Assembly (NCBI GenBank): GCA_964016885.1
Contig: OZ024746.1
Location: forward strand, 86,738,001 to 86,802,000
DNA: 64,000 bases
Direction of reading: 5' to 3'
DNA from: Eledone cirrhosa
Lineage: Eukaryota
A model generated the notes under the pieces. That model was given only the letters and a program-made list of their open reading frames with translations, did no database searches and was not told where the DNA came from. Below, piece by piece: positions 19,711 through 20,207 of this stretch. Every line of letters starts with the position of its first letter. The stretch's first letter is position 1. The position numbers were made by a program, and so were the translations under genes.

Positions 19711-20207
19711 TAGATAATTTAATATATCAACTAACATAGGCGCCTATGTTAGTTGATATATTAAATTATCTATATTTATCTCCAAATCACTGATTTGTCG
19801 AGCAAACCTGCCAAAACCACTTCAAAATTTTTTTTGGGGTGTTAGTAGGCGTCGGTCATCTTACCATCCCATTCCTTCTAACTAGCCTCTATGTCACGTG
19901 ATTGATTCTTTAGAATCGGCCATTTGACTGGAAGCAGTGAGAATTTCAGTACATAGAATCCAGTCCTCGCCTAGCTGTTCTTTCTACCGAATTATTATTT
20001 TTATATGAGCCGCTAGTGTCCGCGCATTGCCTGGAGGCTCAGCTGAGAATAGACTCCCTGATGACGCAATGAATTCTCGACAGTTGGATTATGTAACTGT
20101 CTTTATCCCATTGCAGAAACTAATTAGTTGGAGTGAAAATTTAAGTAAGTAAGTAAAAAAATTTTTTTAAAAATTTTTTAAAAAATATTTTCTTATTTTA
20201 CGTCTTT
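19711..20207 (+). mobile_element. TA-embedded insert: loopless 5' palindrome, hammerhead and tail
   Basis: Perfect palindrome 19711-19772 centred on ggcgcc. Hammerhead at 20053-20134. Long (TA)n on both sides. Confidence 0.75.
20053..20134 (+). ncRNA. Type I hammerhead ribozyme, complete core with extended stem II
   Basis: actcc-CTGATGA-c-gcaatg...gacagtt(ggattatgt)aactgtc...cattgc-a-GAAA-ctaattag-TT-ggagt. Stem III is a perfect palindrome. Confidence 0.8.

What the first reader, a model, noticed from the sequence alone, without database searches (positions are those of the whole stretch)
19711..20207. Loopless palindromic head plus a hammerhead with a long branched stem II
A perfect 62-bp palindrome with no spacer starts exactly where (TA)n ends, as expected if a hairpin-capped end had been opened and filled in. 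Downstream is a full hammerhead core with an 8-nt palindromic stem III (ctaattag) and an extra hairpin in loop II. It has a C.A mismatch at the base of stem II and a GUU cleavage triplet. This is the best single exemplar of the architecture.
Basis: partly seen in the sequence, partly recalled or inferred. Interest (0 to 1): 0.75.

Follow-up and report, generated by a model that had tools for sequence, protein, structure and literature searches.

The report
Twin-primed hammerhead retrozyme, rolling-circle footprint
This is a short copy of a young, protein-free 554-base repeat with a predicted self-cutting RNA motif; its palindrome is where two back-to-back arms meet, and sister copies suggest that a Penelope-type jumping-gene enzyme likely copied an RNA circle from both ends of a DNA cut.

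Summary
The palindrome and the type I hammerhead are real. They belong to a 0.85-unit copy of a 554-nt tandem, non-coding repeat with hundreds of insertions in (TA)n: an animal non-LTR retrozyme with Penelope-type insertion marks. The palindrome is insertion-specific but probably not an opened hairpin. Insertions often have two head-to-head arms; in 52 of 56 two-armed copies one arm ends at site A and the other at site B, about 120 nt further on, never A+A or B+B. In 11 of 51 neither arm contains the other, so both are separate cDNAs. The inner junction varies; it is a perfect palindrome in only 3 of 50. Three tested variants fill every unit of both arms of one insertion and no other copy of that subfamily, as expected from one monomer circle copied round from both ends. 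Cleavage, RNA and the partner enzyme are unproven; two chimeras point to two different Penelope-like families. The scan has found this two-arm layout before in other families and genomes.

The parts
19616..19710 (.). (TA)n target microsatellite, left side
19708..19743 (-). Short inverted arm (B arm): unit phases 165 to about 200, outer end at fixed site B (ATTATCTATAT into TA)
   Evidence: (L068)
19740..19743 (.). Inner junction: native GCGC micro-palindrome shared by both arms; makes the loopless palindrome
19740..20212 (+). Long arm (A arm): 473 nt, phases 165-554 then 1-82 of the 554-nt unit, about 99% identical to the young subfamily
19894..19908 (+). TCACGTGATTGATTC, kept in the 72%-identical sister family; possible internal promoter element (E-box-like; label recalled, function untested)
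20053..20134 (+). Type I hammerhead ribozyme motif with long interrupted stem II, C.A opposition at its base, palindromic helix III
20127..20130 (+). Predicted cleavage site, GUU then cut between 20129 and 20130 (phase 1 of the unit)
   Evidence: hammerhead numbering (established knowledge); excess of arm ends at this place
20198..20212 (+). Fixed outer end A (TTACGTCTTTTATAT into TA), about 80 nt after the cut site
20208..20257 (.). (TA)n target microsatellite, right side; hides any target-site duplication

Best explanation
The stretch is a truncated two-armed copy of a 554-nt tandem hammerhead repeat (an animal non-LTR retrozyme) that was likely pasted into a TA microsatellite by a Penelope-like retrotransposon protein priming both cut DNA ends on the repeat's RNA, at two fixed sites about 120 nt apart. 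Shown: family, tandem unit, fixed ends A and B, the one-A-one-B rule, variable inner junction, arms that are not copies of each other, private variants fixed across both arms. Inferred: tandem copies are transcribed; the hammerhead, probably as a dimer through its palindromic helix III, cuts out monomers that circularise; a Penelope-like RT-GIY-YIG protein nicks both strands of (TA)n, one 3' end primes at A and the other at B; each cDNA runs round the circle (or along a partly cut multimer) for 0.05 to about 10 turns; the two cDNA ends are joined with little or no microhomology. Here the A cDNA ran 473 nt and the B cDNA about 36 nt, both stopped at the same place and were joined through the native GCGC, which gives a loopless palindrome. 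This copy has one hammerhead and no forward B site, so it is likely dead.
For: Family: 341 matches, best ones 96-99% identical, in arrays of about 555-nt period; consensus 554 nt from 83 monomers; exact B-end pattern 569 hits, exact A-end pattern 240 hits, reversed controls 0; 9,562 exact hits to the ribozyme 3' motif over all sister families. Rule: 52 of 56 two-armed family-1 copies are A+B, none A+A or B+B; 3 have a second arm ending elsewhere and 1 ran outside the fetched DNA. On contig 1, 13 of 13 head-to-head pairs among 91 B and 38 A ends are A+B. Sister family (72% identical): 14 of 19 two-armed copies A+B at homologous sites, 5 irregular. The unit has four TATAT words, only two serve as regular outer ends. 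Separate cDNAs: 11 of 51 with neither arm inside the other, three sharing no sequence. Same template: in 41 of 48 no foreign arm is closer than the partner arm (ties are common for short arms). Circle: a 2-nt deletion (3 of 3 genome hits in L057), a substitution (4 of 4 in L047) and a third variant (5 units of L039; the other 14 hits lie on older-subfamily backgrounds) fill all units of both arms. Cleavage trace: 11 of 92 arms longer than a unit stop within 14 nt of the cut site, 2.3 expected; in L116 both arms stop there. Penelope-like elements (RVT_1 + GIY-YIG) in this genome also have a short and a tailed end, and two-armed copies with one of each. A purified Penelope-like protein cuts and extends both strands and starts at two internal sites that bound the tail (PMC11167929, parts 1-2 read).
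Against: No cleavage, transcript or circle is shown. The minimum-energy fold pairs the core with the helix III strand; the hammerhead fold is 2.5 kcal/mol worse, and GUU with a C.A opposition is not the canonical optimum (recalled). Some arrays are not homogeneous: L036 arms differ at two sites, L034 and L045 show period-2, -3 or -5 variants, L031 changes midway, so multimers, two templates or later duplication also occur. Arms that stop at the cut site imply linear templates for those copies. That peak was chosen after seeing the data (scan-adjusted p 0.006) and an equal peak of 11 lies in the A/T run. The private variants were hand-picked (3 tested) and a source locus may be missing from this assembly. 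No autonomous element with a homologous terminal repeat was found among 36 loci around GIY-YIG hits, sampled tails are about 40-65 nt against 120 here, and the two chimeras involve two different families and the sister repeat, not this family; one of them joins two short-type ends.
Confidence: 0.72

Rival explanations
1. Same element and same twin priming, but the template is a linear, partly cleaved multimer transcript of a tandem source array, not a circle.
For: Arms longer than a unit stop in excess at the cut site (11 of 92); heterogeneous or periodic arrays exist (L034, L045, L031); an 88-kb tandem array of the older subfamily could supply long transcripts; for the anole element unprocessed RNA was the main substrate in vitro (PMC11167929).
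Against: Variants confined to one insertion fill all 3-5 units of both arms; a linear source would need an identical homogeneous array elsewhere, and none is in the assembly. The large array is heterogeneous unit to unit.
Confidence: 0.2
2. Fold-back or self-priming (the first reader's hairpin; published for Penelope as self-priming on an antisense template): one cDNA folds back at GCGC and copies itself until a TATAT lets it join the other flank.
For: In this copy the short arm lies wholly inside the long arm and is identical to it over the scored sites; symmetric or near-symmetric junctions are somewhat enriched (6 of 50 within 10 nt, 1.9 expected); palindromes at inverted junctions were read this way in PMC3846280 (passages).
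Against: It does not explain why the second arm ends at B when the first ends at A and the reverse, nor the 11 of 51 copies whose arms do not contain each other, nor the unused TATAT sites. The conserved tail hairpin is rich in G-U pairs on the + strand, which favours a sense template (prediction, only 3 of 34 pairs change on both sides).
Confidence: 0.06
3. A satellite repeat amplified by unequal crossover, with an incidental, inactive hammerhead and inversions made later by DNA repair or by sequencing artefacts.
For: One locus did grow into an 88-kb satellite with higher-order repeats; tandem growth by unequal crossover is proposed in 10.64898/2026.07.22.740005, where 8 of 9 tested dimers did not cleave; TA-centred palindromes of other kinds occur in the window.
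Against: Hundreds of dispersed short copies with two exact ends in TA, variable 5' truncation, the A+B rule in two families, and compensatory changes in stem II. Even the large satellite keeps two arms and ends at B on the right.
Confidence: 0.02

Closest known systems
Animal non-LTR retrozymes (Cervera and de la Pena 2020, PMC7229834, passages read; Li, Clavereau and Pollet 2026, 10.64898/2026.07.22.740005, parts 1-3 of 5 read)
   Same: Non-coding tandem unit with one type I hammerhead, low G+C, well folded (z -4.49, 0 of 100 shuffles), co-occurring with Penelope-like elements; copying of a circle by a borrowed RT is the proposed route.
   Different: Unit of 554 nt is above the 150-450 nt typical range (inside the 51-972 nt range of the preprint). 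The passages read do not describe two-armed insertions with two exclusive fixed ends, nor insertion-private variants fixed across arms. No homologous autonomous terminal repeat found here, unlike 21 matches reported for frog families.
Endonuclease-bearing Penelope-like elements (Craig et al. 2021, PMC8557442, passages; Arkhipova et al. 2013, PMC3846280, passages; Frangieh et al. 2024, PMC11167929, parts 1-2 of 4)
   Same: 5' truncation, partial tandems, an inverted 5'-truncated copy head-to-head, a tail on one end only, (TA)n targeting, palindromes at some inverted junctions, two internal RT start sites bounding the tail.
   Different: No ORF; tail about 120 nt, not 30-40; arms run for many units; the data favour two separately primed cDNAs over antisense self-priming.
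Metazoan and Penelope-type I hammerheads (Cervera and de la Pena 2014, PMC4209133, passages)
   Same: Short helix I, weak palindromic helix III suited to dimer folding, an extra nucleotide after position 9, a G-C pair next to the core.
   Different: An additional A lies between that G-C pair and GAAA (the C.A opposition, 439 of 450 motif hits); stem II is about 50 nt with an internal loop; the triplet is GUU in 450 of 450 hits.

Membership tests
Animal non-LTR retrozyme | Short tandem units, each with a type I hammerhead | tested here: met
   83 monomers of 550-567 nt between cut sites; structure
Animal non-LTR retrozyme | Non-coding, no LTR/PBS/PPT organisation, dispersed young copies | tested here: met
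   No ORF of 250 aa or more in retrozyme loci L066-L068; dispersed copies at 96-99%; unit is smaller than any RT gene
Animal non-LTR retrozyme | Self-cleavage of the transcript | not testable with these tools
   Only an indirect trace: arm ends enriched at the predicted cut site
Animal non-LTR retrozyme | Expressed as linear and circular monomer RNA | not testable with these tools
   No RNA holder listed; circle inferred from private variants
Active retrozyme copy (two consecutive hammerheads) | This copy holds at least two units with hammerheads | tested here: not met
   0.85 unit, one hammerhead (L068)
Non-autonomous Penelope-like element | Inverted 5'-truncated copy head-to-head and tail at one end only | tested here: met
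   52 of 56 two-armed copies A+B
Non-autonomous Penelope-like element | Insertion into (TA)n | tested here: met
   Outer ends abut TA
Non-autonomous Penelope-like element | Sequence homology to the terminal repeat of an autonomous partner | tested here: inconclusive
   None seen in 36 loci around GIY-YIG hits, of 150 scored and 10,597 candidates; two direct chimeras with two families
Autonomous Penelope-like element | RT plus GIY-YIG open reading frame | tested here: not met
   497-nt insertion between two TA runs
Type I hammerhead ribozyme | Core CUGANGA and GAAA, NUH triplet, three helices with covariation | tested here: met
   base of stem II deviates; Rfam gathering search negative
Type I hammerhead ribozyme | Loop I-loop II tertiary contact | not tested
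   No model built

The most novel reading that the evidence does not exclude
These insertions are a direct genomic record that a Penelope-like reverse transcriptase primes both ends of a cut in (TA)n at two different sites on one circular ribozyme RNA and rolls round it from both sides. That would confirm the untested rolling-circle route for animal retrozymes, explain the inverted repeat and one-sided tail of Penelope-like elements by twin priming rather than antisense self-priming, and show that a retrozyme can be picked up by more than one Penelope-like family.
Probability: 0.5. Interest if true: 0.66.

Novelty: new member of a known kind. Interest (0 to 1): 0.44.

Why it matters
How animal retrozyme tandems arise (reverse transcription round a circle or later unequal crossover) and how Penelope-like elements make their inverted repeats and tails are both open. 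This family gives countable footprints for both, shows both routes side by side (short homogeneous arrays against one 88-kb heterogeneous satellite), and names an RNA, two start sites and two candidate enzymes for a test-tube reaction. The palindrome itself is only a by-product, and the class of element is known. The same layout has been noted by this scan in several other families.

Tried and rejected
Rfam at gathering thresholds: 0 matches in the window. The repeat finder on the whole window was swamped by microsatellites. Expression: no RNA holder listed; contigs of four runs of unrecorded kind (at most 2 samples) were laid on one unit and showed many related pieces and one end-to-start joint, with no information on strand or expression. 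Partner search: no homology between the unit and the terminal regions of five sampled Penelope-like families; neighbours across a TA run (14 of 18 rows) were rejected as shared targeting. I first read the L089 chimera as obeying the A+B rule; one search showed its Penelope arm has the short end, so it does not. I expected the large array on contig 2 to be the source of the L039 variant; it is the older subfamily. Automatic junction calling against the young consensus gave negative overlaps for 20 of 50 junctions (insertions or subfamily differences); these were left out of the microhomology count (15 of the other 30 have 2 nt or more, about 17% expected). L043 looks symmetric by eye at helix III but the script disagreed, so it is not counted. 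A-to-I editing as source of the private variants was not supported: one is A to G, one G to A, one a deletion. Sequence look-up in earlier scan notes gave nothing; notes on scrambled hammerheads concern other elements. Literature searches for the two-end rule or twin priming in Penelope-like elements and for this repeat in cephalopods showed no paper describing it; only titles and abstract starts were seen for most hits, subscription papers are not covered, and bioRxiv supplements (family tables of the 2026 preprint) could not be seen.

Full report
Observation. The window holds a perfect loopless palindrome at 19711-19772 (68 bp with the shared TATAT, 19708-19775) directly after a (TA)n run, and a type I hammerhead at 20053-20134. 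Stem II is one interrupted hairpin, not a branch. Rfam does not detect it. In an alignment of 17 diverged copies the named structure has 90.9% of cells paired and 7 of 21 pairs with changes on both sides, all in stem II and its extension; relatedness inflates such scores, and helix III was the selection motif. The C.A opposition stands in 439 of 450 motif hits and GUU in 450 of 450 (loci overlap, so hits are not independent; 9 were mis-anchored). Intramolecular helix III is only 2-3 bp; two copies can pair over 12 bp (-10.8 kcal/mol), the dimer arrangement described for metazoan hammerheads (PMC4209133, passages).

The family. A search of the window's own genome (3.0 Gb; probably a cephalopod, from recall and from scan notes, not tested) gave 341 matches from 39 scored of 687 candidates, mostly in tandem arrays of about 555-nt period with a head-to-head inversion. 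From 38 fetched loci the unit is 554 nt (83 monomers). Numbering from the predicted cut site, the window's long arm covers phases 165-554 and 1-82, the short arm 165 to about 200 on the other strand. The native unit has only GCGC at the centre, so the palindrome was made at insertion. There is a young subfamily (98-99%), an older one (about 93%) and sister families at 72-82%; the ribozyme's 3' motif has 9,562 exact hits. One full unit folds far better than shuffles (z -4.49).

Two fixed ends, one of each. Outer ends fall at phase about 80 (A) or about 200 (B), each running into TA. Exact end patterns give 240 A and 569 B hits, controls 0. Of 38 best-match loci 24 are two-armed: 22 A+B and 2 irregular (the window's copy is one of the 22). 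Of 60 further loci on contig 1 (40 picked by a B end without an exact A partner, 20 by an A end) 32 are two-armed: 30 A+B, one with a second arm ending inside the tail, one running outside the fetched DNA. None is A+A or B+B. From the listed places alone, 13 of 13 head-to-head pairs on contig 1 are A+B although B ends outnumber A ends 91 to 38. The sister family uses the homologous sites: 14 of 19 two-armed copies A+B, 5 irregular. Two other TATAT words in the unit are not regular outer ends, so microhomology alone does not choose the sites. B lies just 3' of a long hairpin predicted in 10 diverged tails (weak covariation). Autonomous RT-GIY-YIG elements of this genome also show a short and a tailed end about 40-65 nt apart, and four two-armed copies of one family carry one of each (L172, L178, L181, L185; L172's short end is irregular). 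This is the Penelope tail (PMC8557442, passages), which a purified protein marks by two internal start sites while cutting and extending both strands (PMC11167929, parts 1-2).

Two cDNAs, not a fold-back. In 11 of 51 two-armed copies neither arm can lie inside the other; L122, L135 and L145 share no sequence between arms. Inner junction phases are scattered; 3 of 50 are perfect palindromes, each at a native micro-palindrome (window GCGC, L123 ACCTAGGT, L138 TA), 6 of 50 are within 10 nt of symmetric against 1.9 expected, and short microhomology is enriched among the 30 junctions that could be scored. The published reading of such palindromes as antisense self-priming (PMC3846280, passages) does not account for the non-nested arms or the A+B rule. 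For the window's copy alone it cannot be excluded. On a circle the enzyme started at A would lap round and meet the one started at B, which gives equal stopping points; this is inference.

What the template was. Arms of one insertion usually share their haplotype: in 41 of 48 comparable cases no foreign arm is closer. Three variants seen in all units of both arms were counted genome-wide: 3 of 3 hits in L057, 4 of 4 in L047 (L047 is also non-nested), and for L039 5 of 19, the other 14 lying on older-subfamily backgrounds (the variant table was cut, the counts cover the 130 parsed units). One monomer copied more than once round from both primers explains this; a missing source locus or later conversion could too. 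Against a circle in every case: L036's arms differ, L034 and L045 have periodic variants, and 11 of 92 arms longer than a unit stop within 14 nt of the cut site (2.3 expected; scan-adjusted p 0.006; an equal peak in the A/T run; ends read by hand from BLAST tables). That excess, and L116 where both arms stop at the cut, are an indirect sign that cleavage happens in vivo and that some templates are linear. One old insertion has grown into an array of about 88 kb with higher-order repeats, still two-armed and ending at B, the later, recombination-driven route proposed in the 2026 preprint.

The partner. No sampled autonomous family is homologous to the unit. Among 160 retrozyme-bearing loci (overlapping) two distinct direct joints to Penelope-like DNA were found, both with the sister family: L089, a head-to-head joint with a YVDD-motif family, with about 20 nt of that family at the junction, and L254, an arm that begins with the short end of a YLDD-motif family with a 946-aa frame and continues as retrozyme. 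Each may record template switching, or nested insertion with deletion. The partner is unresolved. Clade names for these families were not tested.

Verdict. A new member of the animal non-LTR retrozymes that works like a non-autonomous Penelope-like element; this copy is likely dead. The class and the inverted-copy-plus-tail layout are published; the exclusive A+B rule and the private-variant argument for a circle were not found in the searches. Unchecked scan notes report the same two-arm layout for other families in this and other genomes; they are not independent support. Interest 0.44.

Noticed in passing
G000:C2:312578000-312667000 (L256-L265): About 88-kb satellite of the older subfamily: about 5 units on the minus strand, then well over 120 on the plus strand with higher-order repeats, right end at site B. 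A dispersed insertion that became a satellite.
   Followed up: partly
L089:6968-9357 and L254:1302-1884: Two direct chimeras between the sister retrozyme family and two different Penelope-like families, without TA between the parts.
   Followed up: partly
window about 18300-19030, + strand: 3' end of a YLDD-motif Penelope-like element (same family as L091, L100), ending in TA; it carries a hammerhead-like layout whose first core half reads UUGAAAA instead of CUGANGA.
   Followed up: partly
window 6589-6778, 28683-28762, 37037-37110: Perfect palindromes of 190, 80 and 74 bp centred on (TA)n; a different kind from the finding. L146 shows a whole two-armed insertion duplicated in inverted form around a TA-rich stretch.
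   Followed up: no
window 1600 (+), 48738 (+), 21475 and 21907 (-), 51285 (-): Further hammerhead-core pattern hits, not checked for stems.
   Followed up: no
window 26667-27278: Seven tandem copies of an 88-bp G+C-balanced unit at 97% identity.
   Followed up: no
L102:560-2003: An unrelated two-armed hammerhead repeat next to a YVDD-motif Penelope-like element.
   Followed up: no
L139:2248-2475: About 230 nt of unrelated DNA sits in the inner junction between the two arms.
   Followed up: no
window 19894-19908: TCACGTGATTGATTC is kept between families that are only 72% alike; TCACGTGA also stands in the 3' region of a YLDD-motif family. Possible promoter element.
   Followed up: no
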